In this document: positions 1,013 through 63,891 of the stretch, piece by piece
Layout: each line of letters begins with the position of its first letter
Position numbering within the stretch: position 1 is the first letter of the stretch
Source: Candidatus Poribacteria bacterium
GTDB lineage: Bacteria; Poribacteria; WGA-4E; WGA-3G
Assembly: GCA_965217715.1 (NCBI GenBank)
Contig: OZ244563.1
Span: 405,116-469,115 of the forward strand
Reading direction: 5' to 3'
Length of the DNA stretch: 64,000 nt
Notes under the pieces: generated by a model
What the model was told of the DNA's origin: nothing
Seen by the model: only the letters and a program-made list of their open reading frames with translations
The model's database searches: none
Position numbers and translations under genes: made by a program

Positions 1013-1036
1013 ATACAACTACCTCCCGGAGCAGCA

Positions 1037-8826: not shown

Positions 8827-8844
8827 TATACCAATTCTAATAAA

Positions 8845-9492
8845 TTATATCTCATTTGCGACTTTCGTTAAATAACGATAATTTGTTATACTTTCAATAG
8901 TGGTTTTAGTGTAATTTCTTAATATATCGGTCAGTTTGTCCTGCATCTCTTCTATTGAAGCAAACACATTTTGAAACAACTTTGCTTTGATGTCTTGCCA
9001 TAGTCTTTCAATAGGGTTCAACTCCGGACTATAAGGTGGCAGAAAAAGTAAGACCACATTGTCAGGGATTTGCAGTGATTTCGCTTGATGAAAACGCCCA
9101 TTATCAAGCACAAGGATATTCAGAGACGCAGGATAAACCTTAGCAAACTCATCAAGAAATATTTGGAAACAGGCACTATTGAGCCAGGGCATTTCAAGGA
9201 AAAAACTTTCTCCCGTTATTGGTTCCACAGCACCATATAGATAAAAGTTCTCATAAGTATAACTGATTTTGGCAATCGGTTTGACACCGGGCAAGGTAAT
9301 ACACCGATATGAAAAAGGATGAAGACCAAATCTTGACTCATCTTCGCAAAAAAGGCGGACATTTTCAAACGCACAATCTTTCTCCGAAATCGCTGTCTTG
9401 ACTGTTTCAGGGAAGTCTAACTTGAACGTCTCACACGCTTTTTCGTTTTTTTTATATGGCTCTTGCGGGGCACTTTGAGTTTTGCTTTCCAT
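8845..9492 (-). CDS. IS630-family transposase, DDE catalytic part (orfB)
   Basis: DDE_3-like 'LNILVLDNGRFHQAK...LLFLPPYSPELNPIERLWQDIK' is a DD(34)E signature. It overlaps orfA by 76 nt in another frame, consistent with programmed frameshifting. Confidence 0.8.
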   Translation of the reverse strand: MESKTQSAPQEPYKKNEKACETFKLDFPETVKTAISEKDCAFENVRLFCEDESRFGLHPFSYRCITLPGVKPIAKISYTYENFYLYGAVEPITGESFFLEMPWLNSACFQIFLDEFAKVYPASLNILVLDNGRFHQAKSLQIPDNVVLLFLPPYSPELNPIERLWQDIKAKLFQNVFASIEEMQDKLTDILRNYTKTTIESITNYRYLTKVANEI

Positions 9493-9914
9493 CTATACCG
9501 AACCAACGCGTGAACTGCTTTATAGTTCATTTTGACATCAAAAGTTTCTTCAATATAATCTATTATCTGTTGATAACTGGAAAAACCCTCAGGTTTATTG
9601 AGTTCTGCTCGCAACATTTCTTGTTGTGCTTCGGTAAGCTGAGCTGGACGCCCGGGAGAATATTTCCGTGTCAAAAGCGCATCAAGTCCATCAGAGGCAT
9701 AAGTTTGAAACCAATGACCAATCGTTTTCCGATCAACACCTATCATCGACGCGATTTGCTTGCGAGTTAGAGCCTGACCGCTGCGAAATAGTAAAAGGGC
9801 TGTCAACCTTTGTTTTTGATAACCTATGGATGTTTTTCTCAACATTTTTTTCAACTCGGCAACACTTTCTGTTATCTGTGCGGGTTTTAACTTCATTGAT
9901 ACTAATCCTATCAA
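9417..9914 (-). CDS. IS630-family transposase, N-terminal HTH part (orfA)
   Basis: 'LTRKQIASMIGVDRKTIGHWFQTYASDGLDAL' is a helix-turn-helix, with a second winged-helix segment after it, as in IS630 orfA. Confidence 0.75.
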   Translation of the reverse strand: MIGLVSMKLKPAQITESVAELKKMLRKTSIGYQKQRLTALLLFRSGQALTRKQIASMIGVDRKTIGHWFQTYASDGLDALLTRKYSPGRPAQLTEAQQEMLRAELNKPEGFSSYQQIIDYIEETFDVKMNYKAVHALVRYRWKAKLKVPRKSHIKKTKKRVRRSS

Positions 9915-10085
9915 CTATAAATTTGTGATAAAATATAGCAGAAAAGAAAAAATATTAAAAGCGAAAATATTAAATAGAAATGGTATAACTATAGTTTGGA
10001 CAATTTCTTTCTGTTTCCTGTTGAGTCCTCAAGCATTCTTAATTTTCTTTGAGTTTTGTCCGGCATCGTAACTCGTAGAAAAACA

Positions 10086-11612: not shown

Positions 11613-11740
11613 TTTGAAATCTCCATATTTGCCGCTACCATGCTATTTTCAGCATGTGCTGCGATTTGGCTAACTTACGTTCACTGTTTATTTTTTATAG
11701 TAAAATCTAAAAATACCTTTACATTTTCTTAAGGTTAGCG

Positions 11741-11775
11741 GCGTTTGTAGTCGCGCAATTCATTGCGCCTCTTAC
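11741..11775 (+). repeat. family-2 hairpin repeat (GCGTTTGTAGTCGCGCAATTCATTGCGCCTCTTAC)
   Basis: Near-identical to 1585..1620 and 63583..63617. The upstream 'aaatctaaaaataccttta' is also shared with 63548 and 32925. Confidence 0.75.
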
Positions 11776-12273
11776 ATTTTTAGTATGTTTGAAATCCACA
11801 TAAGAACAGAATGTAAATATAATTATGGATTTCACTATAAACAGTGAAAATTAGCCACATGTGTATTTGTTGTGTTTATTTTTCTAATGCTGATATTTTA
11901 ACTTCGGTAATTTACACTCAAATCTATTCATAGCGACACGTTTCGTTAGGACGTTGATGATTTTTTTAAACATATTCAGACAAATTTAGTAGATTACCTT
12001 ACATTATTTGTAAGCAACTATCAACATATTGCAAACGATGTGCAATTATTGTGCCAATTGTGTTCACTTATGGAAGAAAATGGCTCATTATACGTTGAAA
12101 CATTGGGTTTTTAAGGGAAAATATATATTACTTCATATTTTTTGATTGAAGCCGCCAAAAATTACGAGTTTGGGACTGTTTCTCCACTAAATTTAATTTG
12201 GTTTTCATTCTTATATGTGGTATCATTTAAAGAGAAAACATTACTATTCACGAGTCACTATAGGAGGTTTTTA

Positions 12274-12794: not shown

Positions 12795-12835
12795 TTATCA
12801 TATAGTAGAATATAAAAATAAGTTTACACATCTTT

Positions 12836-12895
12836 TGTAGGAGCGATCTCCGAATCGCGACCTTTTGTGAATGTCGGGAATCGGAGTTCCCTCCC
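12836..12895. repeat. family-1 nested-palindrome element (arm GCGAT type, spacer, arm GGGAA type)
   Basis: TGTAGGAGCGATCTCCGAATCGCGAC-cttttgtgaat-GTCGGGAATCGGAGTTCCCTCC. Each arm folds as a 5-bp stem (GCGAT/ATCGC or GGGAA/TTCCC) around CTCCGA. The upstream 'ataagtttacac' is shared with copy 22949. Confidence 0.85.
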
Positions 12896-12965
12896 GCTGA
12901 ATGCCAAAAGCGCATTTGGCGTTGATTTGGCCAAATGCCAAAAGTGCATTTGGCGTTGATTCACA
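12896..12965. repeat. tandem 35-bp hairpin modules (AATGCCAAAAGCGCATTTGGCGTTGATTTGGC, 2 units) abutting the family-1 element
   Basis: Each unit carries an AATGC-N6-GCATT stem. The same modules occur at 59032..59122 and 63751..63850, with compensatory stem variants (CATGC..GCATG, GAATGC..GCATTC). Confidence 0.8.
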
Positions 12966-22626: not shown

Positions 22627-22948
22627 TCGCTTAGGGAAACGCCCAACCTACCGCGTGAAGGTATCTGTGATTACGTTCTGACAAAATTAGGTAAACCATT
22701 AAATCTGACTTTTGGAGGAATAAAATAAACAGTGTATCTTACTTCAACTATCCTATCTCCATTATCCTTTTGCAAACATGATTTTGCCATGAATTGATGC
22801 TTTTACAAAAAAAGCTAAACTTTTTCTGGTGAAACGTATATATTAAGTATAACAGGTGATCACCATGTTATTTTATAGTTTGAAACGATTAACTTTTCTC
22901 GTTATCTTGCTTATATAGTGAAATATACAAATAAGTTTACACTCCTTC

Positions 22949-23014
22949 TGTAGGAGCGATCTCCGAATCGCGACTGCACGCCTTGATAGTCGGGAATCGG
23001 AGTTCCCTCCTACA
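22949..23014. repeat. family-1 nested-palindrome element (GCGAT arm first)
   Basis: TGTAGGAGCGATCTCCGAATCGCGAC-tgcacgccttgata-GTCGGGAATCGGAGTTCCCTCCTACA. Confidence 0.85.
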
Positions 23015-23065
23015 CCTACAAAGTGTCCAAGTAATTCTAAAATCCACTATAAAAGGAAGTAACCG

Positions 23066-35194: not shown

Positions 35195-35245
35195 GAGAGA
35201 TTGAAACTATGGTAGAGATTAGAATTAACTCTACATTCTTGAACT

Positions 35246-35310
35246 GTAGGAGGGAACTCCGATTCCCGACTGCTCCTAAGTTCGGTCGCGATTCGGAGAT
35301 CGCTCCTACA
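35246..35310. repeat. family-1 nested-palindrome element (GGGAA arm first) just downstream of thrC
   Basis: TGTAGGAGGGAACTCCGATTCCCGAC-tgctcctaagttcg-GTCGCGATTCGGAGATCGCTCCTACA. Confidence 0.85.
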
Positions 35311-35398
35311 GAGGAAATGTAGAATTATTTCTATAATCCACTATAAGTAGTGTCTCCATGGGTGCGTCAAACAAACGCACCCATGGAAATCGGTAATT

Positions 35399-36166: not shown

Positions 36167-36193
36167 AATGCGTTCTCCCTTGAATTTTTAATT

Positions 36194-36330
36194 TATGGTA
36201 GATTATTGAATTAATTAGACGTATTTATTTGTAGGAGGGAACTCCGATTCCCGACTATCAGTGAGTTTCGTCGCGATTCGGAGATCGCTCCTACAAGTGA
36301 AGTGTATAATTATTTCCATATTTCACCATA
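36194..36330. mobile_element. MITE-like element (~137 bp) carrying a family-1 palindrome core between imperfect TATGGTA... terminal inverted repeats
   Basis: TATGGTAGATTATTGAATTAATTAGACGTATTTAT-[core 36230..36295]-GTGAAGTGTATAATTATTTCCATATTTCACCATA. The left and right flanks are imperfect inverted repeats (TATGGTAGATTATTGAATTAATTA versus TATGGTGAAATATGGAAATAATTA). Near-identical copies at 36846..36982 and 42294..42430, and a half copy at 63851..63891. Confidence 0.75.
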
Positions 36331-36539
36331 ACAACCGTTATTTAGATTATACACTATTTCACAGAAAAGTTGCAAGGAATAATTATTGTAAGGTGATTTC
36401 AACCATAACAGAGAGAATTCATACCTGTAACGACTCCAATCTTATGCAAATTAACATGCTTCCAATTTATAGGTGTGGTTAGAAACCGTATCTATAAGCG
36501 TCAATTTAAGGATTTTAATTCTACTTTTTGGATATATGT

Positions 36540-36700
36540 ATAGCCTCGTAGAGGCGGTATGTTTATAGCAAACGGTGTCAGTCCTTCTTGAGCTCCGTAG
36601 GAGCGGTATGTGTATCCAATTGCGTCTCTATAAACATATCGTTCCTACGGAACTCAAGAGAAAGGTTAACGTTTTTTATAAACATATCGTTTCCGTCAAA
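36540..36700. repeat. family-3 repeat copy (ATGTTTATAG ... CTATAAACATATCGTTCCTACGGAAC), duplicated tail
   Basis: Related to 10086..10260. It also contains 'tggtgtggttagaaaccg(c/t)atcta' at 36473 and 36788, the inverse complement of 'ggtagatgcggtttcctaaccgcatc' at 43896. Confidence 0.6.
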
Positions 36701-36845
36701 TGCCTGATGTGCATTCGACGTTGATTCACGGAACTCAAGATGTAAAAATCGGGCTTAGAAAGCCCCCTACAAGAAAGACTATATGCCTATGGTGTGGTTA
36801 GAAACCGCATCTACCGTCTGGTAAATAGGATGAATACCGTTAATT

Positions 36846-36982
36846 TATGGTACGTTATTGAATTAATTAGACGTATTTATTTGTAGGAGGGAACTCCGAT
36901 TCCCGACTAAGATTGGCATTAGTCGCGATTCGGAGATCGCTCCTACAGGTGAAGTGTATAATTATTTCCATATTTCACCATA
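36846..36982. mobile_element. MITE-like element, copy 2 (family-1 core 36882..36947)
   Basis: Same termini and core as 36194..36330. The ~500 bp between the two copies is filled with other repeat families and no credible ORF. Confidence 0.75.
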
Positions 36983-37049
36983 GTATTACATTTTGTATAG
37001 ATATGTCACTGAAGTATAACGTCTTCAACAACCGTTTGTTGACAGGTAT

Positions 37050-40000
37050 CTATTCTTCAGCATTCCGTTTTTCAACAAGATAATACAACGCTGGTAAAAC
37101 AAGCAGCGTCAGAAAGGTCGCGGTAATCATGCCGCCGCTGATGACAATGGCAAGCGGCTTCTGGAGTTCTGCACCTGAACCGTGTGCAAGCGCAAGGGGC
37201 AGCATCCCTAACCCTGTTGTCAAGGCTGTCATTAGGACTGGACTAATTCGTTCGGATGCTCCCTTCATCACAGCGTCAAATAGCGACATGCCTTCCTTGC
37301 GTAGTGCATTGATATGTGAAACCAAGATGATGCCGTTACGCACTGCGATGCCGAACAAAAGAATAAAACCTACCATAGACGGAATACTCAGCACTCCGCC
37401 AGTGAGGAAAACACTGACAACACCACCGATTAACGCCAACGGTAGGTTCAGTATCACTAATATTGAAAGCCGCATTGAACCCATCGCAAGATACAGTAAA
37501 ATAAAGATACCGATAAAAACAAAACCTGTTTGAATTAGGATACGTCTTTGCGCTCTCTGTTGACTTTCAAACTGTCCACCATAGGTGAGAAAATATTCAT
37601 CAGGTATATCAACATGCGCCTCAATTTCTTTTTGAACTTCAGCAATAAAGTTACCAAGGTCCCTATTTTGCACATTACATTGGATCACGATACGACGAGA
37701 GACGTTCTCGCGATTGATGGTATTCGGTCCGAAGCCAAAACCGACATCAGCAACCTGTTTCAATGGGATGAATGCGCCTGAAGACGTTCGTAGTTTCAGA
37801 TTGCCAAATGATTCAACGGTTTTGACAAGTGTTGGGTCAATCCGAACAACAAGGTCATACTGCCGTTGTCCTTGTATAATTTGACTGACTGTCTCGCCTT
37901 TGAAAGCCGCTTCAGCAAAGTGTGTTATGTCTTGAACGCTTAAGCCGTAACGTGCTGCTTCAAGACGTTTAACTTTGATTTGCAATTGTTCAACCTGCAC
38001 TTGTTGTTCAACCTGTAAATCTGCAACACCATCAATCCCGGACATGACTGCTTCGATTTCCTCGGCTTTCTGTCTTAGCGTATCAAGGTCAGGTCCGAAA
38101 AGTTTCAGTGCCACTTGCGCGCTAACACCCGACAACAAATGGTCAAGACGGTGTTGAATCGGTTGACCAACGGATACTTGGACACCCGGAAAGTTTTCTG
38201 TTGAGAGCAGCTCCCGCACTTCAGTAAGAAGTTCTTCACGTGTTTTTTCACGTTCATCGGGTGGAATGAAGTTAACCACAATTTCATGCGTATTCACATC
38301 GTGTGCATGTTCGTCCGCTTCGGCGCGTCCTGTTCGACTACTGACACTTGTCACCTCCGAAATATCCCTCAACCTTGTTTCCATCTCACGACCAATACGT
38401 GTAGATTCATTCAACGAAGTTCCAGGTGGTGAAAACACGCTGATAGTAAACGTAGCTTCATCCATCACAGGCAAAAACTCTCTTCCTAAACGAGGAATCG
38501 CCATTAAAGTCAGTATTACCAGTACCGATGCAACTGCCACTACAAGCCAACGTAAACGTATAACCAATGAGAGAATAGGACGATACGCGCGTTTGATCCA
38601 CATCACAACAGGCTGGAGCGTTAAGGCAGTCTCAACATCTGAATCAGGTGCCAATGCGACAACAAACAACCGCCATCGTACTAAAAGGTTGCGAAAAACG
38701 TTAGAAGCCCGTTTGCCTGAAGAATCAGCTCCTGGAATGGGTTCATGCAAAGGTATATCTCTGACGCGTCCTAAAAGTAGATCACTTAAAACTGGAACCA
38801 CTGTTAAAGCAACGAGCAACGATGCTGCCATTGAAATCACAACAGCCCAACCGAGCGGACGAAACATTCTGCCCTCAATGCCGCTCAGACTGAACAGTGG
38901 TAAAAACACGAGGATAATAATCAACGTTGCAAAAACGATGGATACACGCATCTCATCGCTTGCGCGTGTCACAACTTGTGTCGGTGTTTCGTCTGTCTCA
39001 TTCCCTAAATCACGTAGATGAAAATACTCCTGCAAGCGCCGAAAGATATTTTCTACGTAGACAATTGCATCGTCAACCACCATACCAACAGCAATTGCTA
39101 AGCCTGCAAGCGTCATAATGTTGAGAGTGCTTCCCTGTAAACGCAGCACAATGATAGCGATAATCAGCGATAACGGAATAGCAGTCAGTGTAATCAGTGC
39201 GGTGCGGATATTGAAGAGGAAGATAATTAGGACAACAACAACAAGAATTGCACCATCCCGCAGCGCTTCTTTGACGGTATCCACAGCGCGGCGAATTAAA
39301 TCAGCTTGTGCGTACTCAACTTCTATCTTTACATTCTCTGGTAGCGACTTCTCCAACGATTTCAGTTCTGATTTAACTTCGTCGCTGAGGGTAAGCGTAT
39401 TGATACCGGGTTGCTTCACGACCTTACCTAAAACGGTTTCTTCACCGTTGCGGCTTCCAGCGCCACGACGGATTTCTGGAAGCGATCCAATTTTGACTGT
39501 TGCGATATCTTTGACGAGGATAGGTGTGTTGTGTTTCCGTACATCAATTACAACATTTTCAATGTCGGCAACCGAGGAAATCCGTCCTAATCCTCTGATC
39601 ATCAGCTCACGCGCGTCTTTGATGAGAAATCCGCCTGCTGCATTATCGTTGCTCTTTTCAAGTGCGTGTGCAACATCTTCAAGTGAAATGCCGTAGCTTA
39701 CCAACCGTTCAGGATTAACGAAAACTTGAAATTGTTTGATATAACCTCCAATGTTAATTACATTGGCGATCCCACCCTGTGATTGGAGTCGGTACCGTAT
39801 CACCCAGTCTGCTATGTCGCGCATTTCCATCGGATCCAGTTTGTCTTTTTCATCTGATTCATCAATGAGCGCGTATTCCATAATCTCTCCCAAGAGGGAA
39901 GAGGTGGGTAAAATAATTGGAGCATCAACGCCTTCTGGTAAATTCGGTGCAACGAGTTGCAGTCGTTCAGAAACCATCTGCCGCGCCAGAAAAATATCCA

Positions 40001-40301
40001 TCCCCCATTCAAATTCAACGAAAACGAGGGATAAACCGATCGCTGATGATGAGCGAACCCGTGTAACATCTGGCGCGCCGTTCATTGAACTTTCTATCGG
40101 TAACGTCACAAGGGTTTCCATCTCCTCAGGAGACCATCCATGTGCTTCTGTTAGGACAGTAATCCGAGGTGGATTGATGTCGGGGTAAACGTCAATTGGC
40201 GCCGTTTGGAACATCCTAAAGCCGATTATGACTACAGCGATGAGTCCACAAATAACAAGTAGTCTATTCCTAAGCGACGCTTCGGTGATTTTTGACCACA
40301 T
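37050..40301 (-). CDS. heavy-metal efflux RND transporter, CzcA/CusA (HME) family
   Basis: 1083 aa with 12 TM segments and two large periplasmic loops, characteristic HME-RND length, N-terminal 'RNRLLVICGLIAVVIIG' and a conserved TM4 region 'AIAVGMVVDDAIVYVENIFRRL'. Strong GGAGGA RBS. Confidence 0.9.
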   Translation of the reverse strand: MWSKITEASLRNRLLVICGLIAVVIIGFRMFQTAPIDVYPDINPPRITVLTEAHGWSPEEMETLVTLPIESSMNGAPDVTRVRSSSAIGLSLVFVEFEWGMDIFLARQMVSERLQLVAPNLPEGVDAPIILPTSSLLGEIMEYALIDESDEKDKLDPMEMRDIADWVIRYRLQSQGGIANVINIGGYIKQFQVFVNPERLVSYGISLEDVAHALEKSNDNAAGGFLIKDARELMIRGLGRISSVADIENVVIDVRKHNTPILVKDIATVKIGSLPEIRRGAGSRNGEETVLGKVVKQPGINTLTLSDEVKSELKSLEKSLPENVKIEVEYAQADLIRRAVDTVKEALRDGAILVVVVLIIFLFNIRTALITLTAIPLSLIIAIIVLRLQGSTLNIMTLAGLAIAVGMVVDDAIVYVENIFRRLQEYFHLRDLGNETDETPTQVVTRASDEMRVSIVFATLIIILVFLPLFSLSGIEGRMFRPLGWAVVISMAASLLVALTVVPVLSDLLLGRVRDIPLHEPIPGADSSGKRASNVFRNLLVRWRLFVVALAPDSDVETALTLQPVVMWIKRAYRPILSLVIRLRWLVVAVASVLVILTLMAIPRLGREFLPVMDEATFTISVFSPPGTSLNESTRIGREMETRLRDISEVTSVSSRTGRAEADEHAHDVNTHEIVVNFIPPDEREKTREELLTEVRELLSTENFPGVQVSVGQPIQHRLDHLLSGVSAQVALKLFGPDLDTLRQKAEEIEAVMSGIDGVADLQVEQQVQVEQLQIKVKRLEAARYGLSVQDITHFAEAAFKGETVSQIIQGQRQYDLVVRIDPTLVKTVESFGNLKLRTSSGAFIPLKQVADVGFGFGPNTINRENVSRRIVIQCNVQNRDLGNFIAEVQKEIEAHVDIPDEYFLTYGGQFESQQRAQRRILIQTGFVFIGIFILLYLAMGSMRLSILVILNLPLALIGGVVSVFLTGGVLSIPSMVGFILLFGIAVRNGIILVSHINALRKEGMSLFDAVMKGASERISPVLMTALTTGLGMLPLALAHGSGAELQKPLAIVISGGMITATFLTLLVLPALYYLVEKRNAEE

Positions 40302-40324
40302 TGATTTTCCTCCTTAGAACTAAA

Positions 40325-42259
40325 CTAATGCGAGTGTCCTGCGTGCGCGTCAACTACATCAGTGGAACCTGCTGAAGCTCTTTTGAGTTGATGAGTTCCT
40401 TGGACAACTACAAATTCACCTATGAATAAACCATCTTTGATTTCAATATACTGGTCATCTTTTGCACCAACTTCAACTTCATGTTTGACGTAAGTATTAC
40501 CCGATTCAACAAAGACAAACTTTGTAGCACCATCTTCCAGTACAGCACTCAACGGCACACTCAAGACATCATCCAATTTTTCAATGACGAGTGTTTGTTC
40601 AGCAAACATTCCCGGTTTCAATTGATAACTGGAATTGTCTACCTCTGTCCAAAAATGGACGGTGCGTTTATCCGGATTCATAACGGCAGAGATTTGAGAA
40701 ATCTTCCCTGTGAAAACTTTTCCGGGATAAGCAGGAACCCGAATTCGCACATCGCTTCCTATTTGCCACTTGTCCTGTAAAAGTGCAAGCGTGTCTTCGT
40801 AAGCCTCACCCTCAATCCATACGACATCAGTATCAAGTATTGAGTATAGAGAATCACTTTTGTCAACGGTTGCACCGAGTGTTACATCTTGTTTGACGAT
40901 CTGTCCAACAGATGGTGCTTTGACGTAAAATCGTGCCTGAGATTTTCCTGTTTCAATGACTTTTTCTATCTCATTTGCGGTCATACCGAACACTTCAAGT
41001 TTCTGATGAACTTTGGCTAACACAATAGCAGCATTGCGCTGTGCTTCTTCCGTTTGGAGCAGTGCTTCTAATGCCTCTGAACTCGTCATGAAAGGCGCGA
41101 AATTTTCAATGAGTTCCTCAGCGGATAAATTTTTGAACGAGATAATTGAAGTAGTTTTAGCAAGGTTTTCAATATGGGTTTCAGTTAAACCCCCGGCTAA
41201 TGCCCGTAGTTTGTTAGCTTCAACTTTGACAACAGCAGATTTGTACACTGTTTCTGCGTCAACCAATCCAGACGCTTCTTCAATTAAAGTAACATATTTC
41301 AAGGCATCAACACTATCAGTCGTTTGTGTTGATGTTGACTGTGATTTGCTGTCCGCATTCAGCAGAACGAGAATTAGCGTTGTTCCGTCATCACTTAGTA
41401 TTTTTTTAAGTGTTTCTTCATTGATACCGAGGATCTGAAATTGTCGCTTTGCCCCAGCGAATGCGTTGGTTGCTTTTGTGTATGCTGCTTTTTGCGCGAT
41501 AAGTTCCTTATGTGCAGATATACGTTTTTCTGTGAGCATCTCAATACGCGCAAGCGTGTTTTCAAGTAATTTGCGTTCAACATCAGTTTTCACAAGATCA
41601 ACACGCATCTGTTCTAAAGCTGAAATGGTCTTTGCAATAGCTAATGTTCTATGTTTCAGAAAAGCTGCTTTTTGCTCTTGCATCTCAGCAAGTGATTGTA
41701 AATAGTCAATTTGTAGCGTTTGCAATTCCAGTCGTATCTGCTTAGCAAAAACTGATTTCTGTTTTGCTAATTTAACGTCTAAAGACTTCTGTTGATGGAC
41801 TGCTTCAATCAGGTCAATCTCAGCCAATTGTAAGTCAAGACTCTCCAATTCAAGTAGGACATCACCTTTTTTTACCGAGTCACCAAGATTAGAGTGGATG
41901 TGTTTTACGATACCACCAATTCTTGGTGTAACGACTGCCTGTTTTCCAGGATGGGCAATGACGTTACCCGTAACTTGAACAACCTTTTCTATAGTGTGAA
42001 TGTCAGTTTCAGCAGTCTTTAAACCAATATTCGCTTTTGCTTTATCGGTGAGACTCACCTCGTTTTCCGCTGTGTGAGCATGACCGTTCTCTCCAGCAGG
42101 GTTATGTGGCGCGTCCTCTTTTTGTTCTCTATTTTCGCTGATAACCTGTTCTTCGTCCGCCCAAGCTAATGTGAGATAGGGATTTGATGAAAGCAAACCG
42201 CCTATTGCTATTACAAAAATTACTAAAAATAGTTGTATGAAATGAAAGTTGCGTTGCAT
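40325..42259 (-). CDS. RND efflux periplasmic adaptor (membrane fusion protein, CzcB/CusB-like) with His-rich termini
   Basis: N-terminal TM, an unusually long coiled-coil hairpin, then beta-barrel and MP domains '...VIEKLDDVLSVPLSAVLEDGATKFVFVE'. His-rich N-terminal (PHNPAGENGHAHTAENE) and C-terminal (VDAHAGHSH) tails suggest metal binding. Confidence 0.85.
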   Translation of the reverse strand: MQRNFHFIQLFLVIFVIAIGGLLSSNPYLTLAWADEEQVISENREQKEDAPHNPAGENGHAHTAENEVSLTDKAKANIGLKTAETDIHTIEKVVQVTGNVIAHPGKQAVVTPRIGGIVKHIHSNLGDSVKKGDVLLELESLDLQLAEIDLIEAVHQQKSLDVKLAKQKSVFAKQIRLELQTLQIDYLQSLAEMQEQKAAFLKHRTLAIAKTISALEQMRVDLVKTDVERKLLENTLARIEMLTEKRISAHKELIAQKAAYTKATNAFAGAKRQFQILGINEETLKKILSDDGTTLILVLLNADSKSQSTSTQTTDSVDALKYVTLIEEASGLVDAETVYKSAVVKVEANKLRALAGGLTETHIENLAKTTSIISFKNLSAEELIENFAPFMTSSEALEALLQTEEAQRNAAIVLAKVHQKLEVFGMTANEIEKVIETGKSQARFYVKAPSVGQIVKQDVTLGATVDKSDSLYSILDTDVVWIEGEAYEDTLALLQDKWQIGSDVRIRVPAYPGKVFTGKISQISAVMNPDKRTVHFWTEVDNSSYQLKPGMFAEQTLVIEKLDDVLSVPLSAVLEDGATKFVFVESGNTYVKHEVEVGAKDDQYIEIKDGLFIGEFVVVQGTHQLKRASAGSTDVVDAHAGHSH

Positions 42260-42293
42260 TTTTTGCCTCCTTATAGATAATATGCGTTATAGA

Positions 42294-42430
42294 TATGGTA
42301 GATTATTGATTTAATTAGACGTATTTATCTGTAGGAGGGAACTCCGATTCCCGACTATCAGTGAAGTTCGTCGCGATTCGGAGATCGCTCCTACAGGTGA
42401 GGTGTATAATAATTTCCATATTTCACCATA
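42294..42430. mobile_element. MITE-like element, copy 3, inserted in the 180-bp spacer between czcC-like and czcB-like genes
   Basis: TATGGTAGATTATTGATTTAATTAGACGTATTTAT-[core 42330..42395]-GTGAGGTGTATAATAATTTCCATATTTCACCATA. Confidence 0.75.
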
Positions 42431-42441
42431 ATACGCGTTAA

Positions 42442-44785: not shown

Positions 44786-44852
44786 TGTAGGAGGGAACTC
44801 CGATTCCCGACTATCAGTGAGGCTCGTCGCGATTCGGAGATCGCTCTTACAG
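44786..44852. repeat. family-1 nested-palindrome element plus conserved flank GAAAATGTTCTTCTTTAATTTCAAAG
   Basis: TGTAGGAGGGAACTCCGATTCCCGAC-tatcagtgaggctc-GTCGCGATTCGGAGATCGCTCTTACA. The same flank occurs at 59189 and, inverted, at 48745..48768. Confidence 0.85.
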
Positions 44853-45270
44853 AAAATGTTCTTCTTTAATTTCAAAGTTTACCATATTATGAAGTATACA
44901 CAATTTTCTAACACAATGTCAAGAAGAAAATTTAAAAGTAATCGTTACGTGTGATTCTTCCAAAACAATGCAATTGTTTTGAATAATTAGGTTAAATGTT
45001 CAAATTATAGACAGCAATGTCCATATTATAACTACATTTTCCATTATTGTGGCATAAATCGCTATGATTCCAAGCTCAACCGTTTATTACAATTGGCATC
45101 GTATTTGCTCATATTTCATTATGAGGAAAATCAGTAACGAAATCACTACCTTTGCTTGCACACAAATTCCTTGAAAATTGCATTAAAAAATGCTAAAATC
45201 TAAATGATACGTTCTATCTATTATGTGTAAGTTTTAGTCAAACCTATATGAAGGTAAAGAGGATATACAA

Positions 45271-46339: not shown

Positions 46340-48748
46340 ATGAAAAGATTTTTGGCTTTTGCAATCGGAATGTTTTTTGTGGCTGCTATTCTCGGAAATG
46401 CAGACGCACAACTCCCAGATTTTCAGATTGATTCTGAAAGTATTATCTTCTCTAATCCGAATCCTGTTGAAGGCGAGGAGATTACGATTTGGGTTGAGAT
46501 AAAAAACGTTGGAACTGAGACTCCCACGAGGAACGAAGACTTGGTCGTTGATCTTTTTGAAGGTGATCCAACGACAAAGCCACTTCAGATTTTATGCAAT
46601 GATGTCATTTTGGATTTGAAACCCGGAAAAACTGACCGTGTGGAGATACAGTGGCAGCCCCCTGCCGGTAGAACTGAGATTTATGCTATCGTCAACCCAA
46701 CAGGTGATAAACATATTGTAGAATCTAACAATGTGAATAACGAAGCATCTGCTGTGATAGTCGCTACCCAGATAACTTTTCCTGAAGTAACGCCAGAACA
46801 AATTCAAGCGTCAATAGATCAGGGTATTGCGTGGATAGAAGCACAACAAGGAAAAAGTAGTCGCACTTGTTTACAATGTGGAGTAGAAAACCAAATGATT
46901 TTAACCTGTGTTATCTGCGGCGCGAGTCTGAAAGGTTTAGCAGAAAATTTTATACCAGGTTCCGTCTGGAATTTTGGTGAAGACCCACTACAGGAAACAT
47001 CATTGGCATTACAGGCGTTGCTTGCCGCAGGACGCACCCCATCTGACCTTTCTGTGCAGAAAGGGCTTGCGGACCTTCTTGAACAGGATTGGAATACGCT
47101 TGATGTTTACCAATATGCTGTACTCATTCCGGTCTTGGTTGTAATACGGAACCCGGAAAATCGGGAACGCGCCCAATTCGCTGTGAATCAGCTCGTAAAA
47201 AAGCAACTTCCTATCCCCGGTAGTGAATTCGCTGATGTGAGGGATGATGGTGGTTGGGGTTATGGTTACTCAGCGGATGGTGCACACATGAACATGGTTA
47301 TCTACGCGCTTTATGCTGCAAAGCAGTGGGGTCTTGAAATTCCACAAGATACATGGACACGTGCAGAGAGGTGGATTCGTGGAAATCAGACTGACACGGG
47401 CGGATGGCTCTATAATTTGGTTGAAGAAGGGTCACTGTGGGGAATTGGCGTTTACGGCAGCATGACCGCTACTGGTTTGTGGGCACTTCGTGCATGTGGT
47501 GTTTCCATTGATGATCCTCAGGTACGAAAAGGTATTCGCTGGCTAACAAAGCACTGGTCACTTACACGAAATCCAGGATCGACTTCTTGGCTTTATTATT
47601 ATCTTCTTTCCCTGCAACGTTTTAGTGATATTCCGCCAAAGGAAGAGACATTGGCTGGTCATGACTGGTACAATGAAATTGCAAGCATGATGGTCTCAGA
47701 ACAAAAAGCGGACGGTAGTTGGGATAGTCCTGGGGCGGCGACAGATTTTATGTCTACTTGTTTTGCAGTCATGTTTTTGAGTCGCGCACTTGTTCGTCCG
47801 ACAGCACCAAATATTGGTGTGGTACCACAAAGCTTACGTTTTTCACCGCCATCTCCACGCGTTGGCGAAGCAGTGAAACTGAGTGCGACACTTAGAAATA
47901 CTGGCACTCCTTTTGATAAAACGCTGGAAGCCAAGTTTTTTGCTAATAACACTGAAGTCCAAACAGCGGAGGTATTCTGGACATCCACCCTCAATGAGTC
48001 TGTTGTTTCAGTTGACTGGGTACCAAAACAAGAAGGTGAAACAGAAATTTCTATTCATGTGGACTTTGATGATTTTGATAAAAGTGACAATTCAGATTCA
48101 GTACTTCTCAATGTTTATCCAAAATCTACGTCCGCAACAGACACACAGTTGGCAAAGATCAAGAAAATATCGGAAAATGTCTTTCAGATGGGTGTTGTTG
48201 TAGTTGATATAGAAAAAAAGGAAATTATTGTTCCAGGCGAAGTTAACATTGCAAGTGATGATGCAATAATCGAATTCTTTGCATGTGGGACACTCGGGCC
48301 ATCCCATGAGAGCATCTTGATGCTTGAGGCGGAACCAATTCATCTTTTTACTGCCCTCGGTTTACTGGACCTTGAATACGGCATGAATCTTGAAGTCCAA
48401 GGTGATCCACGCGATCCTGAGGGTTCTCACGTACAAATATGGGTTGAATGGAAACAGGGTAAAAAAGTTATCTCACATCCAGCACGCGAGTTGGTGTGGA
48501 ATACAATGTCTGGGCAACCGATGCAAAAAACACATTGGGTTTTTACCGGCGGACGACTCAGGAAAAACCAATTAACCTCACAACTCACGCATAATATCAT
48601 TGCAGTATACCGTGATCCTGATTCACTAATCAACAACCCATTATCCGGTGCCACTGATGATCGCACTTATCTTGTCAATACCGATGTAGTCCCACCTAAA
48701 GGCACAAAAGTTAAGGTTATTATTCGTCCCATATATGGTGAACTTTGA
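46340..48748 (+). CDS. secreted multidomain protein: CARDB, prenyltransferase/terpenoid-cyclase-like alpha-alpha toroid repeats, CARDB, C-terminal unknown domain
   Basis: Signal peptide. CARDB-like 'ESIIFSNPNPVEGEEITIWVEIKNVGT' and 'SPPSPRVGEAVKLSATLRNTGTP'. Toroid repeats 'DDGGWGYGYSADGAHMNMVIYALYA', 'DTGGWLY' and 'QKADGSWDSPG'. An internal 'CLQCGVENQMILTCVICG' CxxC...CxxC knuckle. Confidence 0.6.
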   Translation: MKRFLAFAIGMFFVAAILGNADAQLPDFQIDSESIIFSNPNPVEGEEITIWVEIKNVGTETPTRNEDLVVDLFEGDPTTKPLQILCNDVILDLKPGKTDRVEIQWQPPAGRTEIYAIVNPTGDKHIVESNNVNNEASAVIVATQITFPEVTPEQIQASIDQGIAWIEAQQGKSSRTCLQCGVENQMILTCVICGASLKGLAENFIPGSVWNFGEDPLQETSLALQALLAAGRTPSDLSVQKGLADLLEQDWNTLDVYQYAVLIPVLVVIRNPENRERAQFAVNQLVKKQLPIPGSEFADVRDDGGWGYGYSADGAHMNMVIYALYAAKQWGLEIPQDTWTRAERWIRGNQTDTGGWLYNLVEEGSLWGIGVYGSMTATGLWALRACGVSIDDPQVRKGIRWLTKHWSLTRNPGSTSWLYYYLLSLQRFSDIPPKEETLAGHDWYNEIASMMVSEQKADGSWDSPGAATDFMSTCFAVMFLSRALVRPTAPNIGVVPQSLRFSPPSPRVGEAVKLSATLRNTGTPFDKTLEAKFFANNTEVQTAEVFWTSTLNESVVSVDWVPKQEGETEISIHVDFDDFDKSDNSDSVLLNVYPKSTSATDTQLAKIKKISENVFQMGVVVVDIEKKEIIVPGEVNIASDDAIIEFFACGTLGPSHESILMLEAEPIHLFTALGLLDLEYGMNLEVQGDPRDPEGSHVQIWVEWKQGKKVISHPARELVWNTMSGQPMQKTHWVFTGGRLRKNQLTSQLTHNIIAVYRDPDSLINNPLSGATDDRTYLVNTDVVPPKGTKVKVIIRPIYGEL

Positions 48749-48768
48749 AATTAAAGAGACACTTTTTC

Positions 48769-48834
48769 TGTAGGAGCGATCTCCGAATCGCGACGAAACG
48801 CATTGATAGTCGGGAATCGGAGTTCCCTCCTACA
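48769..48834. repeat. family-1 nested-palindrome element beginning at the stop codon of the upstream gene
   Basis: TGTAGGAGCGATCTCCGAATCGCGAC-gaaacgcattgata-GTCGGGAATCGGAGTTCCCTCCTACA. The inverted flank 'tgaaattaaagagacacttttt' overlaps the TGA at 48746..48748. Confidence 0.85.
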
Positions 48835-48937
48835 GTTCAGGACTGTAGCGTTAATTGTAATCTTTACCATAAATCTTCAGCCACAATTTATGTGGTAGGT
48901 CAACCACACCTGAATTTCAACTCATGGAAAGAAAACA

Positions 48938-58713: not shown

Positions 58714-58789
58714 GTCGCGATTCGGAGATCGCTCCTACTTCTGGAACGTTTTTGGTAGGAGGGAACTCCGATTCCCGACTACTTTCAAG
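58714..58789. repeat. family-1 arms in inverted (inside-out) order: arm GCGAT type, 14-nt spacer, arm GGGAA type
   Basis: GTCGCGATTCGGAGATCGCTCCTAC-ttctggaacgtttt-TGGTAGGAGGGAACTCCGATTCCCGAC. The upstream flank 'caacatattattgtcc' is repeated at 58994. Confidence 0.75.
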
Positions 58790-59570: not shown

Positions 59571-59956
59571 CTTTTTCTCCTATTCTATTCATATCTTCAG
59601 GTGGTATCCACTGGGTTATAATATCTTTGTTTAGTAATCTCGGTTAATCATTAGACAAGTGAGGAAACATTGTGTTCATGAAAACTGAATTACCTGATTA
59701 TTGGAATTTCCAGCCGATTCCTCTCCCATTTGAACCTTCTGTTATTAAAGACGCATATGCAAGCAAAAAGATTGCACTTTTTCATAAAAAAATGCATTTT
59801 TTCGGTAAAAAGTGATTTTTTATGCGGTTTTTTCAAGAAATATGTGGAAAGTAGGTTTCCGAAAAATAAAAAGACACGCATTAAAGCGCGCCTAAATGAT
59901 CATGAGATTTTATTTGCCTTTTATAGTGGATTTTACAATTAACTGGACATCTGATA

Positions 59957-60021
59957 TGTAGGAGGGAACTCCGATTCCCGACTATTAGTGGTTTCGTCGC
60001 GATTCGGAGATCGCTCCTACA
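59957..60021. repeat. family-1 nested-palindrome element
   Basis: TGTAGGAGGGAACTCCGATTCCCGAC-tattagtggtttc-GTCGCGATTCGGAGATCGCTCCTACA. Confidence 0.85.
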
Positions 60022-60102
60022 GAATATATGTGAACTTATTTACATAATTTACTATAAAAGCCATGGTGTTCAGGAACTTCAGCTAATAGAGGCGAATATA
60101 CG

Positions 60103-63093: not shown

Positions 63094-63582
63094 TTTTTCT
63101 CCTATCCAATTTCATCTACATGCGCGGCATTCATTGGATAATGAACCCAGTATTTTAATTGCTTTAGTTAACGGTTAGATGCGTGAACAAACTTTATTTT
63201 CAGGTAAACTAAATCTTTTCGAATTTTTAGATACTTCAGTCGGTTTTCTACTTTGAAGAACTCCTTATGATTATAGACGCGTTTTTGAGGGCAAAAGGGT
63301 GCATTTTTTGAAAAAATATACATTTATTGGATGAACAGAAGGTTTTTTGTGTAATTTTCCCTGAGATGATCAAGGTGAGGGTTATAGCGGTTGTTGAAAA
63401 CGGTTTGCGAAGGATAGGGAGACATGCAGCGAAAGATTACCTCATGTGTGTTTGCAAAACTTATAGCAAAGTCCAAATATGTTGAGACTATATTTATTGA
63501 AACCAGACTCTGTTCTTACGAGTCATTCCAGTGTTTTTATAGTGAAATCTAAATTATCTTTACAGTTCTCTATAGATTTAAT

Positions 63583-63617
63583 GCGTTTGTAGTCGCGCAA
63601 TTCATTGCGCCTCTTCC
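63583..63617 (+). repeat. family-2 hairpin repeat (GCGTTTGTAGTCGCGCAATTCATTGCGCCTCTTCC)
   Basis: Near-identical to 1585 and 11741. It is preceded by 'gaaatctaaattatctttac', which is shared with those copies. Confidence 0.75.
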
Positions 63618-63728
63618 ATTACCGGTAGGCGAGGTTTCCTAACCTCGCTGGTGCAGAGTGTCCAATTAATTCCAAAATCTACTATAACACGCTAAATCCC
63701 TTATTAGGGACTTTTGAACCCATTGTTA

Positions 63729-63850
63729 GTCGGGAATCGGAGTTCCCTCCCGCCAAATGCCATGCGCGCATTTGGCGTTGATTTGGCTGAATGCCAAAAG
63801 CGCATTCAGCGTTGATTTGGCTGAATGCCAAAAGCACATTTGGCGTTGAT
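63729..63850. repeat. single family-1 arm (GGGAA type) followed by three tandem 35-bp hairpin modules
   Basis: GTCGGGAATCGGAGTTCCCTCC / cgccaaatgccatgcgcgcatttggcgttgatttggc tgaatgccaaaagcgcattcagcgttgatttggc tgaatgccaaaagcacatttggcgttgattcat. Confidence 0.8.
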
Positions 63851-63891
63851 TCATAAATAAATACGTCTAATTAATTCAATAATCTACCATA
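63851..63891. mobile_element. half MITE terminus (inverse complement of the TATGGTAGATTATTGAATTAATTAGACGTATTTAT end)
   Basis: AAATAAATACGTCTAATTAATTCAATAATCTACCATA directly abuts the tandem modules, which places the modules where the palindrome core sits in full copies. Confidence 0.6.

What the first reader, a model, noticed from the sequence alone, without database searches (positions are those of the whole stretch)
36194..42430. 137-bp MITE built around the palindrome core, in 3.5 copies, including one inside the czcCBA-like operon
Three full copies (36194..36330, 36846..36982, 42294..42430) share about 95% identity over conserved flanks that are imperfect inverted repeats of each other (TATGGTAGATTATTGAATTAATTA... 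/ ...TAATTATTTCCATATTTCACCATA). That is a MITE architecture with the family-1 palindrome as cargo. One copy sits in the 180-bp spacer between the czcC-like and czcB-like genes, so it must be co-transcribed. Two others bracket a 500-bp repeat dump just downstream of czcA. The efflux operon is thus delimited by this element on both sides. Either it is a hot spot, or the element helped mobilise or rearrange the metal-resistance module.
Basis: seen in the sequence. Interest (0 to 1): 0.5.

Follow-up and report, generated by a model that had tools for sequence, protein, structure and literature searches.

The report
Mobile hairpin repeat in efflux operon
The three 137-bp repeats are real copies of a small non-coding mobile element that is common in sponge-symbiont (Poribacteria) genomes; two are shown to be insertions at a TA, into transcribed spacers of a metal-efflux locus, but they did not move or rearrange that locus.

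Summary
Copies at 36194-36330, 36846-36982 and 42294-42430 are 90-95% identical (95-98% outside a 14-nt loop). A fourth, disrupted copy lies at 63729-63891.

The MITE reading is largely right. Three related Poribacteria genomes keep the same gene order but lack two of the copies. Their empty sites show the whole unit inserted at a TA that became duplicated: a 133-bp body plus TA.

The element is composite:
- **Arms.** Two roughly 37-nt AT-rich arms form terminal inverted repeats. The family consensus starts TATAGTGGATT, identical to the first 11 nt of the Neisseria Correia repeat.
- **Core.** Two inverted 25-nt GTAG-headed REP units form a REPIN-like doublet.

Exact copies of these units flank RAYT (Y1 transposase) genes in four other Poribacteria genomes. 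The same arms carry other REP types elsewhere.

What is not supported:
- The operon was not mobilised. Gene order is conserved without the element.
- The element does not delimit the operon. One copy sits between the outer-membrane and adaptor genes, one after the pump gene, and one in the 5'UTR of the next gene.
- No autonomous parent was found. The window's IS630-family element has unrelated ends.

Verdict: a new variant of known kinds of element, of moderate interest.

The parts
36194..36330 (+). Copy 1 of the 137-bp subfamily: TA + 133-bp body + TA. It lies in the 5'UTR of the 255-aa gene (36166-35399, - strand), between its conserved promoter and its ribosome-binding site.
   Evidence: The empty sites in L111, L112 and L114 read ..AACGGNTGT TA AAT.AAAA..; the filled site reads ..AACGGTTGT TA[TGGTG..CTACCA]TA AATTAAAAA... 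The promoter-like site TTGCAA-18-TATAAT at 36375-36346(-) is conserved in all relatives.
36846..36982 (+). Copy 2 of the 137-bp subfamily, 68 nt downstream of the RND pump stop codon. It sits in the presumed 3'UTR, before a terminator-like hairpin at 36765-36751(-).
   Evidence: The relatives are too diverged at this point to give a clean empty site. Its loop differs from copy 1 at 7 of 14 positions, while the rest differs at 3 of 123.
42294..42430 (+). Copy 3 of the 137-bp subfamily, in the spacer between the outer-membrane (OEP) and adaptor genes of the efflux operon.
   Evidence: The spacer is 35 bp in L111, L112 and L114 and 182 bp here. The window reads TTAACGCGTAT TA[body]TA TCTATAA..; the empty L112 site reads TTAACGCGTAT TA TCTATAAGGAGG. 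As RNA on the operon strand it folds at -44.4 kcal/mol.
42260..42293 (-). Remainder of the spacer downstream of copy 3 on the operon strand. It holds a 16-bp tandem duplication of the target (TAACGCRTATTATCTA x2; the first unit is interrupted by the element) and the adaptor gene's ribosome-binding site.
   Evidence: Comparison with L111, L112 and L114.
63729..63891 (-). Disrupted fourth copy of the same subfamily: left arm, then about 100 nt of AACGCCAAATGCGC..GGCATT palindromic units, then one core unit whose GTAG head has become GCGG. There is no second core unit and no right arm.
   Evidence: The same arm-plus-insert variant occurs complete in L120 and L121.
36231..36294 (+). Core of copy 1. 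R1 is GTAGGAGGGAACTCCGATTCCCGAC, followed by a 14-nt loop and the reverse complement of R2 (GTAGGAGCGATCTCCGAATCGCGAC). The two units differ at 4 positions that are compensatory within each unit's own 5-bp stem (GGGAA/TTCCC versus GCGAT/ATCGC).
   Evidence: read directly from the sequence. The core is invariant in 26 aligned elements from many genomes.
35208..35345 (+). Full element of a different arm subfamily with the same core, between the 3' ends of the PALP gene and the 255-aa gene.
   Evidence: An orthologous copy is present in L111; the site is empty in L114.
22914..23051 (-). Full element with the consensus-type arms (TATAGTGGATTTTAGAATTA..) and the same core.
48734..48871 (-). Full element of another arm subfamily with the same core.
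59922..60056 (+). Full element (135 bp) with consensus-type arms and the same core.
44787..44886 (+). Partial element: core plus right arm, left arm missing. It lies downstream of a strong promoter-like site at 44922-44893(-) and upstream of the 146-aa gene that precedes the OEP gene.
   Evidence: The 146-aa gene is placed by synteny with L111, L112 and L114.
12801..12897 (-). Partial element: GCGG-headed R1, loop, R2 and right arm. The left arm is replaced by AACGCCAAATGCGC.. units (12898-12957).
58714..58779 (+). Bare core units in the opposite arrangement (the GTAG heads face the 16-nt spacer), without arms.
11696..11839 (+). The same kind of arms carrying a different GTAG-type REP (GTAGTCGCGCAATTCATTGCGCC).
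63538..63686 (+). The same kind of arms carrying two other GTAG-type REPs (GTAGTCGCGCAATTCATTGCGCC and GTAGGCGAGGTTTCCTAACCTCGC).
8826..9988 (-). IS630-family insertion sequence: overlapping orfA (HTH) at 9914-9417 and orfB (DDE_3) at 9492-8845. It is the only TA-type transposase in the window. Its 32-nt terminal repeats (TTATACCAWTTCTAWT..) do not match the element's arms.

Best explanation
**What it is.** The 137-bp repeats are three young copies of one subfamily of a non-autonomous mobile element family found across Candidatus Poribacteria. Each copy is a 133-bp body flanked by a duplicated TA.

**Two modules.**
- The arms are two roughly 37-nt AT-rich terminal inverted repeats. The family consensus is TA|TAGTGGATTTTAGAATTAAC..ACA, and this subfamily starts TA|TGGTAGATT.
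- The core is a REPIN-like doublet of two 25-nt GTAG-headed REP units in inverted orientation around a variable loop of about 14 nt.

**Shown here.**
- The whole unit inserts as a block at TA, in AT-rich and roughly symmetric targets (WWT|TA|AWW).
- Copies 1 and 3 are insertions absent from three related genomes.
- The core units are the repeats that immediately flank a clade of RAYT (Y1/HUH) transposase genes in four other Poribacteria genomes.
- The same arms carry at least six other REP types.
- The core is invariant across genomes, while the arms vary by subfamily and keep their complementarity.

**Inferred.**
- Whole-unit transposition is most likely done in trans by a TA-duplicating DDE transposase of the IS630/Tc1-mariner kind acting on the arms. 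That enzyme was not identified.
- The RAYT probably binds, maintains and exchanges the REP cargo.
- The three copies lie in transcribed non-coding spots: an intercistronic spacer, a 3'UTR and a 5'UTR. They should therefore be co-transcribed and fold into a long stem-loop.
- As with Correia elements in Neisseria, such a stem-loop could be a processing or stability determinant. No effect on expression is shown here.

The element did not mobilise the efflux genes.
For: - **Copies and identity.**
- **Hairpin fold.**
- **Host.** The exact core 25-mer occurs in more than 110 stretches in many Poribacteria MAGs.
- **Empty versus filled orthologous sites.** These give a TA duplication for copy 1 (clean) and for copy 3 (with an extra 16-bp tandem duplication). 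An orthologous filled/empty pair exists for 35208-35345. Further presence/absence cases occur among other genomes.
- **Target preference.** 19 of 31 elements have T at -1, 19 of 31 have A at +1, and 29-30 of 31 have A/T at positions -3 and +3.
- **Arm complementarity.** It is kept through changes on both sides at alignment columns 4/138, 23/119 and 24/118. There are 28 doubly changed cells against 10.8 +/- 2.5 in shuffles, and the covariation score is 0.104 against 0.02-0.05 for slid controls.
- **RAYT link.** A Y1_Tnp gene in L068 (Pfam E = 5e-10) and its homologues in L117, L118 and L119 are flanked on both sides by exact R1, with R2 as well in three of the four. A paralogue in L115 has a different REP of its own.
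- **Other cargo.** The arms carry other REP types.
- **Synteny.** Gene order is conserved without the element.
- **Correia comparison.** The Correia repeat sequence comes from PMC5039591. Correia properties come from the abstract of PMC2649163.
Against: - No autonomous element with matching ends was found in about 1 Mb of Poribacteria sequence. The only TA-type transposase in the window has unrelated terminal repeats.
- Every carrier seen holds at least one REP, and no cargo-less carrier was found. That is unexpected if the arms alone are enough for transposition.
- The core is far better conserved than the arms, which are the supposed transposase binding sites.
- A cognate RAYT could not be looked for in the source genome itself.
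- Copy 2 has no clean empty site.
- Two elements sit in 16-bp duplicated targets, which a simple 2-bp duplication does not explain.
- Any effect on transcripts is untested. No promoter or terminator consensus is created at the operon copy.
Confidence: 0.8

Rival explanations
1. The whole 137-bp unit is a long-armed REPIN moved by the RAYT (a Y1/HUH single-strand transposase). The REP core is the binding site and the arm tips are the cleavage sites. The flanking TA pair is then not a true duplication: one TA is the target and the other is the element's own end, as in IS200/IS605-type insertion next to a short target.
For: - Every carrier seen holds a GTAG REP, and none is empty.
- The core is invariant, while the arms keep only structure and tips.
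- RAYT genes are flanked by exact core units in four genomes.
- In L117 a left arm lies directly upstream of the REP array that precedes the RAYT gene. In L118 an arm tip closes the downstream array.
- No matching DDE element was found.
Against: - The target preference is symmetric on both sides of the TA. A one-sided Y1 target would not predict that.
- Different REP families, each presumably with its own RAYT, share the same arms and tips.
- The arms are long terminal inverted repeats with a Correia-like end, which is the classic layout for a double-strand DDE substrate.
- RAYT loci in L119 and L068 have no arms.
- There is no orientation bias relative to flanking genes: 9 against 9.
Confidence: 0.22
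2. The three copies arose by local segmental duplication or recombination around the efflux locus, not by transposition.
For: Three copies of one subfamily lie within 6.3 kb in the same orientation. Short duplicated target sequence lies next to copy 3.
Against: - Similarity stops exactly at the TA on both sides of every copy.
- Relatives have precise empty sites with a single TA.
- The same subfamily occurs in unrelated metagenome contigs.
- Other subfamilies occur at eight more places in the window.
Confidence: 0.02
3. The unit is primarily a host regulatory RNA or DNA element, such as a terminator, attenuator, processing site or protein-binding site. On this view it is conserved because it functions, and its spread is secondary.
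For: - The core is conserved exactly across many species.
- All copies in the window are intergenic and often lie in UTRs.
- The RNA hairpin is very stable.
- Tandem core arrays lie in the leader of a cold-shock-like gene in L001.
Against: - No Rfam family matches, even at E <= 1.
- There is no T-run or terminator consensus at the element.
- Presence and absence vary between close relatives at the same loci.
- There is no orientation preference relative to genes.
- Flanking of RAYT genes explains the conservation of the core.
Confidence: 0.1

Closest known systems
Correia repeat-enclosed elements (CREE/NEMIS) of Neisseria
   Same: - Both are MITE-like elements of about 100-160 bp with terminal inverted repeats.
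- Both have a TA at each end.
- The poribacterial consensus end TATAGTGGATT equals the first 11 nt of the Correia repeat TATAGTGGATTAA.. (PMC5039591).
- No autonomous parent was found here. From my own recollection, not checked in the library, none is known for Correia elements either.
- Both insert in intergenic and operonic spacers where they are co-transcribed as long hairpins.
- From my own recollection, not checked here, a Correia element is reported in the meningococcal mtrCDE efflux locus, which would parallel the present case.
   Different: - Beyond position 11 the arms differ, and the 137-bp subfamily itself starts TATGGTAGATT.
- The interior is a pair of GTAG REP units rather than the Correia core.
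- The host phylum is unrelated.
- IHF binding, RNase III cleavage and end promoters, known for Correia elements (PMC2649163 abstract), are untested here.
REPINs / REP-RAYT systems (GTAG-type REPs; Pseudomonas, E. coli BIMEs)
   Same: - The units are 25 nt with a GTAG head and a short imperfect palindrome.
- They are arranged as inverted doublets around a short spacer.
- They also occur as singlets and tandem arrays.
- Exact copies flank Y1_Tnp/RAYT genes on both sides.
- RAYT paralogues have their own REP variants.
   Different: - As far as I know, classical REPINs have no long terminal inverted repeats outside the REP pair and make no target duplication.
- Here the mobile block is the arms plus the REPIN, with a TA on each side.
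GTAG-15 REP dimers inside long TATAGGA..TCCTATA palindromes in Anabaena variabilis (Di Nocera et al. 2013, PMC3733652, section 7)
   Same: - Both have GTAG REP dimers sitting in the middle of a long AT-rich palindrome that starts TATAG and ends CTATA.
- In both, the outer palindrome was never found without a REP.
   Different: - That case was reported in passing and read as REPs inserted into 'target palindromes'. The section read reports no mobility of the whole unit, no target duplication and no alternative cargo.
- The arm sequences differ.
IS630/Tc1-mariner-derived bacterial MITEs (e.g. RUP of Streptococcus pneumoniae)
   Same: - Both are short, with terminal inverted repeats.
- RUP is proposed to be moved in trans by an IS630-family transposase (PMC3049150).
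- TA-specific insertion with TA duplication is the hallmark of this family (my own knowledge, not checked in the library), and it is what is seen here.
   Different: For RUP the ends resemble those of IS630-Spn1. Here the IS630-family element in the window has unrelated ends, and no matching IS was found.

Membership tests
MITE (generic) | Short (<300 bp), non-coding, with terminal inverted repeats | tested here: met
   The unit is 137 bp. Its arms of about 37 nt are imperfect inverted repeats, and the whole unit folds as one hairpin. No plausible gene fits inside; the only ORF that touches it (36261-36482, 73 aa) runs out of it into the spacer.
MITE (generic) | Target-site duplication shown by filled versus empty sites | tested here: met
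   A TA duplication is shown for copies 1 and 3 and for 35208-35345, using orthologous sites in L111, L112 and L114. Copy 2 could not be tested.
MITE (generic) | Multiple dispersed copies with unrelated flanks | tested here: met
   There are 11 core sites in the window and more than 110 stretches in other genomes. The flanks differ.
MITE (generic) | An autonomous element with the same terminal repeats that encodes the transposase | tested here: not met
   None was found among about 1 Mb of fetched loci. The ends of the window's IS630-family IS do not match. Whole genomes could not be searched.
Correia element (CREE) family | 26-28-nt terminal repeat TATAGTGGATTAA(C/A)..(GGTACGG/AGGACAA) | tested here: not met
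   Only the first 11 nt of the family consensus agree. The 137-bp subfamily has TATGGTAGATT.
Correia element (CREE) family | TA at both ends / TA target | tested here: met
Correia element (CREE) family | IHF site, RNase III processing, promoters created at the ends | not testable with these tools
   The consensus scan shows no promoter or terminator created at the operon copy. Binding and cleavage need experiments.
REP / REPIN with RAYT | 20-40-nt imperfect palindrome with an unpaired GTAG head | tested here: met
   R1 is GTAG-GA-GGGAA-CTCCGA-TTCCC-GAC and R2 is GTAG-GA-GCGAT-CTCCGA-ATCGC-GAC. The definition follows PMC3733652.
REP / REPIN with RAYT | Two REPs in inverted orientation separated by a short spacer | tested here: met
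   59 doublets were found in the window and loci, with spacers mostly of 13-15 nt.
REP / REPIN with RAYT | A RAYT (Y1_Tnp with HUH and Tyr motifs) flanked by the same REPs | tested here: met
   This is met in other Poribacteria genomes: L068, L117, L118 and L119. It is not testable in the source genome, for which only the window is available.
REP / REPIN with RAYT | The mobile unit is the REP doublet itself, with no outer terminal repeats and no target duplication | tested here: not met
   The inserted block is the arms plus the doublet, with a TA on each side.
IS630/Tc1-mariner-dependent MITE | TA target duplicated on insertion | tested here: met
   The target is symmetric and AT-rich.
IS630/Tc1-mariner-dependent MITE | Ends match those of a resident IS630-family element | tested here: not met
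   The IS at 8826-9988 ends in TATACCAWTTCTAWT, whereas the element ends in TATRGTRGATT. Only about 10 of 20 positions agree, which I judge to be near chance for AT-rich sequence.

The most novel reading that the evidence does not exclude
The arms and the REP core form one functional unit of a RAYT-driven system. The Y1/HUH transposase binds the central REP hairpins and cuts at the TA|TAGTGGATT tips. On this view these Correia-like 'MITEs' are long-armed REPINs. By extension, the long-orphan Correia-type ends might be substrates of single-strand HUH transposases rather than DDE enzymes. The exchangeable REP cargo in a constant carrier would then be a modular addressing system that lets several RAYT paralogues share one chassis.
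Probability: 0.2. Interest if true: 0.75.

Novelty: new variant of a known kind. Interest (0 to 1): 0.45.

Why it matters
For the efflux locus the result is mostly deflationary. The operon is ancestral and syntenic, and the repeats are late insertions into its untranslated spacers. At most they could modulate transcript processing, and they did not bring in metal resistance.

For mobile-DNA biology the family is more useful. It physically couples two classes of small bacterial repeats that are usually treated separately:
- TA-inserting inverted-repeat MITEs with a Correia-like end, whose transposase was not found here.
- GTAG REP doublets tied to RAYT genes.

Many complete Poribacteria genomes now exist, and filled and empty sites are easy to find. 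The system therefore offers a tractable way to ask who moves such elements, and why a REP is always on board.

The held literature contains nothing that links Poribacteria with REPs, RAYTs or MITEs.

Tried and rejected
1. **Known RNA families.** Rfam at gathering threshold on the whole window, and at E <= 1 on 36100-37100, gave only three tRNAs elsewhere.
2. **Source record.** An exact look-up of the adaptor protein failed twice. Phylum-level assignment rests on the repeat and on orthologues.
3. **Window's IS630-family IS as parent.** Its ends do not match, and there are no further copies in the loci.
4. **Autonomous element among the loci.** I looked for matching termini 0.3-3 kb apart. The only pairs found were neighbouring small elements.
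5. **Arms flanking RAYT genes, which would point to a RAYT-carrying parent.** The result is inconsistent: a left arm in L117, an arm tip in L118, and none in L119 or L068.
6. **Orientation bias relative to genes.** All unambiguous copies in the window have the same relative orientation. The wider sample gives 9 against 9, so I dropped this.
7. **Outward promoter from the TGTATAAT in the right arm.** The consensus scan does not support it. The motif lacks proper extended -10 spacing and is specific to this subfamily (direct reading).
8. **Intrinsic terminator function.** There is no T-run after the hairpin.
9. **Cargo-less carriers.** None was found.
10. **First MAFFT alignments of filled against empty sites.** These were misleading because of end gaps, so I re-read the junctions by eye and from cleaner orthologues.
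11. **RAYT query.** The hits were then confirmed with Pfam.

Full report

Yes. The repeat finder and pattern searches place three 137-bp copies at 36194-36330, 36846-36982 and 42294-42430, all on the + strand.

They are 127/137, 130/137 and 124/137 identical. Outside the 14-nt central loop they are 120/123, 118/123 and 117/123 identical. Dinucleotide-preserving shuffles give no matches for the 28-nt arm or the 25-nt core unit, against 4 and 11 observed.

The 'half copy' is 63729-63891 on the - strand. It has the same left arm, then about 100 nt of another palindromic repeat, then one core unit.

The unit folds into one long hairpin: DNA -26.8 kcal/mol (z -6.5) and RNA of the operon strand -44.4 kcal/mol (z -6.0).

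Pfam confirms the gene context on the - strand:
- OEP at 43704-42442.
- A CusB/CzcB-type adaptor at 42259-40325.
- An RND pump at 40301-37050.
- A 255-aa gene of unknown family at 36166-35399.

**2. Where does it come from, and how common is it?**

Of the 80 listed, all but two are titled Poribacteria, and they come from many different MAGs and complete chromosomes.

In the window the core occurs 11 times, always between genes.

Most doublets carry outer arms of the same general form: TATRGTRRATTTTASAATTAAC..ACA on the left and ..TGT....TTATTT..ATA.TTCACYATA on the right. The arms fall into subfamilies.

The subfamily in the finding also occurs in two unrelated metagenome contigs, and a related form occurs in L087.

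**3. Is it mobile?**

I searched with the adaptor protein and fetched the orthologous loci from three relatives, at 85, 82 and 80% protein identity. These are L111, L112/L113 and L114.

All have the same gene order: OTCase-PALP-255aa-RND-adaptor-OEP-146aa.

*Copy 3.* The OEP-adaptor spacer is 35 bp in all three relatives and 182 bp in the window.
- Empty site in L112: TTAACGCGTAT TA TCTATAAGGAGG.
- Window: TTAACGCGTAT TA[TGGTG...CTACCA]TA TCTATAA CGCATATTATCTATAA GGAGG.
- This is the element with a duplicated TA. The window also has a 16-bp tandem duplication of the target.

*Copy 1.* This case is clean.
- Empty sites: AACGGNTGT TA AAT.AAAA.
- Filled site: AACGGTTGT TA[body]TA AATTAAAAA.

*Element at 35208-35345.* It is shared with L111 at the same site, and the site is empty in L114.

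*Copy 2.* The relatives have diverged too far at this point to give a clean empty site.

Independent presence/absence differences of about 137 bp also occur between other Poribacteria genomes.

Across 31 elements the flanks are AT-rich and roughly symmetric around the TA. T is at -1 in 19 of 31, A is at +1 in 19 of 31, and A/T fills positions -3 and +3 in 29-30 of 31.

All three are contradicted.

**4. What are the parts?**

*The core.* It consists of R1, a loop of about 14 nt, and the reverse complement of R2.
- R1 is GTAGGAG-GGAA-CTCCGA-TTCC-CGAC and R2 is GTAGGAG-CGAT-CTCCGA-ATCG-CGAC.
- The four differences between R1 and R2 are compensatory within each unit's own small stem-loop.
- This explains why the long hairpin has four mismatches that are conserved in every copy.
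- A GTAG head on a short imperfect palindrome is the signature of the GTAG super-family of REPs (PMC3733652).

*The RAYT link.*
- The gene in L068 (157 aa; motifs PDHVHAV and YCYENPV) matches Pfam Y1_Tnp at E = 5e-10. It is flanked on both sides by arrays of R1/R2 doublets, and its stop codon lies inside the head of an R1 unit.
- Its homologues form a family of 233 proteins. The few that carry a source name are labelled Candidatus Poribacteria bacterium, or RayT by JGI.
- Three fetched homologues, L117, L118 and L119, are again flanked on both sides by exact R1 units. L118 has about 50 tandem units.
- A 64%-identical paralogue in L115 is flanked by a different REP, GTAGGAGCGAGYTGTGCTCGCGATC.
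- A more distant RAYT in L018/L086 is flanked by yet another REP.
- I therefore conclude that the 'family-1 palindrome' is the cognate REP pair of one poribacterial RAYT.

*The arms.*
- The family consensus starts TATAGTGGATT. This equals the first 11 nt of the Neisseria Correia repeat as printed in PMC5039591. The rest of the arm differs.
- The two arms keep their complementarity through double changes at several positions. One is the fourth base from the tip: A-T in 14 elements, G-C in 6 and G-T in 4.
- There are 28 doubly changed cells against 10.8 +/- 2.5 in shuffles, and the covariation score is well above the slid-partner controls. The sequences are related, so this is supportive rather than conclusive.
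- The same two-armed carrier also holds other GTAG REPs, single or double. Examples are window 11696-11839 and 63538-63686, and loci L034, L057, L094, L095, L107, L110 and L120.
- No carrier without a REP was seen.
- The closest precedent I found is a passing remark that GTAG-15 dimers of Anabaena variabilis lie inside long TATAGGA..TCCTATA palindromes that never occur empty (PMC3733652 section 7).

**5. Who moves it?**

This is unresolved.

For a DDE transposase of the IS630/Tc1-mariner kind acting in trans:
- The TA duplication.
- The symmetric target.
- The long terminal inverted repeats.

The window does hold an IS630-family IS at 8826-9988, with an HTH orfA and a DDE_3 orfB. Its ends are unrelated to the arms. 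No matching autonomous element turned up in about 1 Mb of Poribacteria sequence.

For a RAYT-driven mechanism:
- A REP is always present.
- The core is far better conserved than the arms.
- Arms occur at the edge of RAYT-flanking arrays in L117 and L118.

Against a RAYT-driven mechanism:
- The target is symmetric.
- Different REP families share the same arms.
- Other RAYT loci have no arms.
- There is no strand bias relative to genes.

I put the DDE model at about one half, the RAYT model at about one fifth, and leave the rest open.

**6. What does it do to the efflux locus?**

It did not bring the locus in or rearrange it, because synteny is conserved in genomes that lack copies 1 and 3. It also does not delimit the operon.

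| Copy | Position relative to genes |
|---|---|
| 3 | Between the OEP stop codon and the adaptor's ribosome-binding site |
| 2 | 68 nt after the pump's stop codon and before a terminator-like hairpin at 36765-36751 |
| 1 | Between the conserved promoter-like site TTGCAA-18-TATAAT (36375-36346) and the ribosome-binding site of the 255-aa gene |

All three should therefore be transcribed as part of mRNAs and form a very stable stem-loop.

By analogy with Correia elements, this could alter mRNA processing or stability. Correia elements can bind RNase III, bind IHF and create promoters (PMC2649163 abstract).

None of that is shown here. The consensus scans find no promoter or terminator created by the operon copy, and Rfam has no match.

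**7. Verdict**

It is wrong on the suggested role in mobilising the operon and incomplete on the nature of the cargo.

The element is a new variant that combines two known kinds: a Correia-like TA-inserting carrier and a RAYT-associated REP doublet. It appears undescribed for Poribacteria in the literature I could search. Interest is moderate.

Noticed in passing
window 8826-9988 (- strand): An apparently intact IS630-family insertion sequence. It has overlapping orfA (HTH, 9914-9417) and orfB (DDE_3, 9492-8845), as if joined by a frameshift, 32-nt terminal inverted repeats and a TA on both sides. Its ends are unrelated to the 137-bp element.
   Followed up: yes
window 12898-12957 and 63754-63854; also L120 8863-9060, L121, L071, L008: Tandem palindromic units of about 35 nt (AACGCCAAATGCGCTTTTGGCATTCAGCCAAATC) sit at the GTAG head of core unit R1, which then reads GCGG. 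The same junction recurs in several genomes, so this is a distinct repeat family with a precise insertion point.
   Followed up: partly
window 42260-42293 with 42431-42441; L043 2270-2440: The target of copy 3 carries a 16-bp tandem duplication (TAACGCRTATTATCTA x2), and the element interrupts the first unit. An element in L043 is flanked by a perfect 16-bp direct repeat (TAAAAAGAACGGTATA). A simple 2-bp TA duplication does not explain either case.
   Followed up: partly
L118 2513-4333; L117 1761-1926 and 2471-2706; L001 2698-2877; L023 3266-3490: Long head-to-tail arrays of the 25-nt R1 unit with a 35-40-nt period. About 50 units lie downstream of a RAYT gene in L118. In L117 the repeats include duplicated pieces of the RAYT 3' end. 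In L001 the array lies just upstream of a cold-shock-like gene.
   Followed up: partly
window 11696-11839 and 63538-63686; L034, L057, L094, L095, L107, L110, L120: The same two-armed TATAGT..ACTATA carrier holds at least six other GTAG-type REP sequences, single or double. No carrier without a REP was found in about 1 Mb.
   Followed up: partly
window 36256-36269 versus 36908-36921: The 14-nt loop of copy 2 (TAAGATTGGCATTA) differs from that of copy 1 (TATCAGTGAGTTTC) at 7 of 14 positions, while the remaining 123 nt differ at 3. The hairpin tip therefore changes much faster than the stem, or it has been replaced.
   Followed up: no
window 36331-36845: The '500-bp repeat dump' is a mixture. 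It holds the conserved promoter and leader of the 255-aa gene, and a second REP family with GTAGGA heads (GTAGGAGCGGTATGTGTAT / GTAGGAACGATATGTTTAT, about 36540-36700). It also holds a 23-nt direct repeat GGTGTGGTTAGAAACCGYATCTA at 36472 and 36791, and a terminator-like hairpin at 36751-36765.
   Followed up: partly
L117 2720-2760: Downstream of the RAYT-flanking repeats lies a short palindrome, CAGTGGATTGACAAATCCACTG. It is made of two copies of the AGTGGATT tip motif of the arms facing each other. It may be a relic junction or a coincidence.
   Followed up: no
In L018 a partial duplicate of the gene's 3' end follows it. Poribacteria therefore carry several REP-RAYT systems.
   Followed up: partly
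window 470-1018 (- strand): A 182-aa ORF whose only Pfam match is a double-stranded RNA-binding motif (dsrm, E = 1.9e-5). This may be worth a look in a genome whose transcripts carry many long hairpins.
   Followed up: no
L111 1-5932 and L114 1-5899 versus window 44900-48750 and L112: Upstream of the efflux operon the relatives differ. L111 and L114 have a type I restriction-modification system with a HicAB pair. The window and L112 have the Vgb_lyase/SGL-like and CARDB genes, and L112 has a DDE_5 transposase in between. This is the variable side of the locus, and the variation is unrelated to the 137-bp copies.
   Followed up: no
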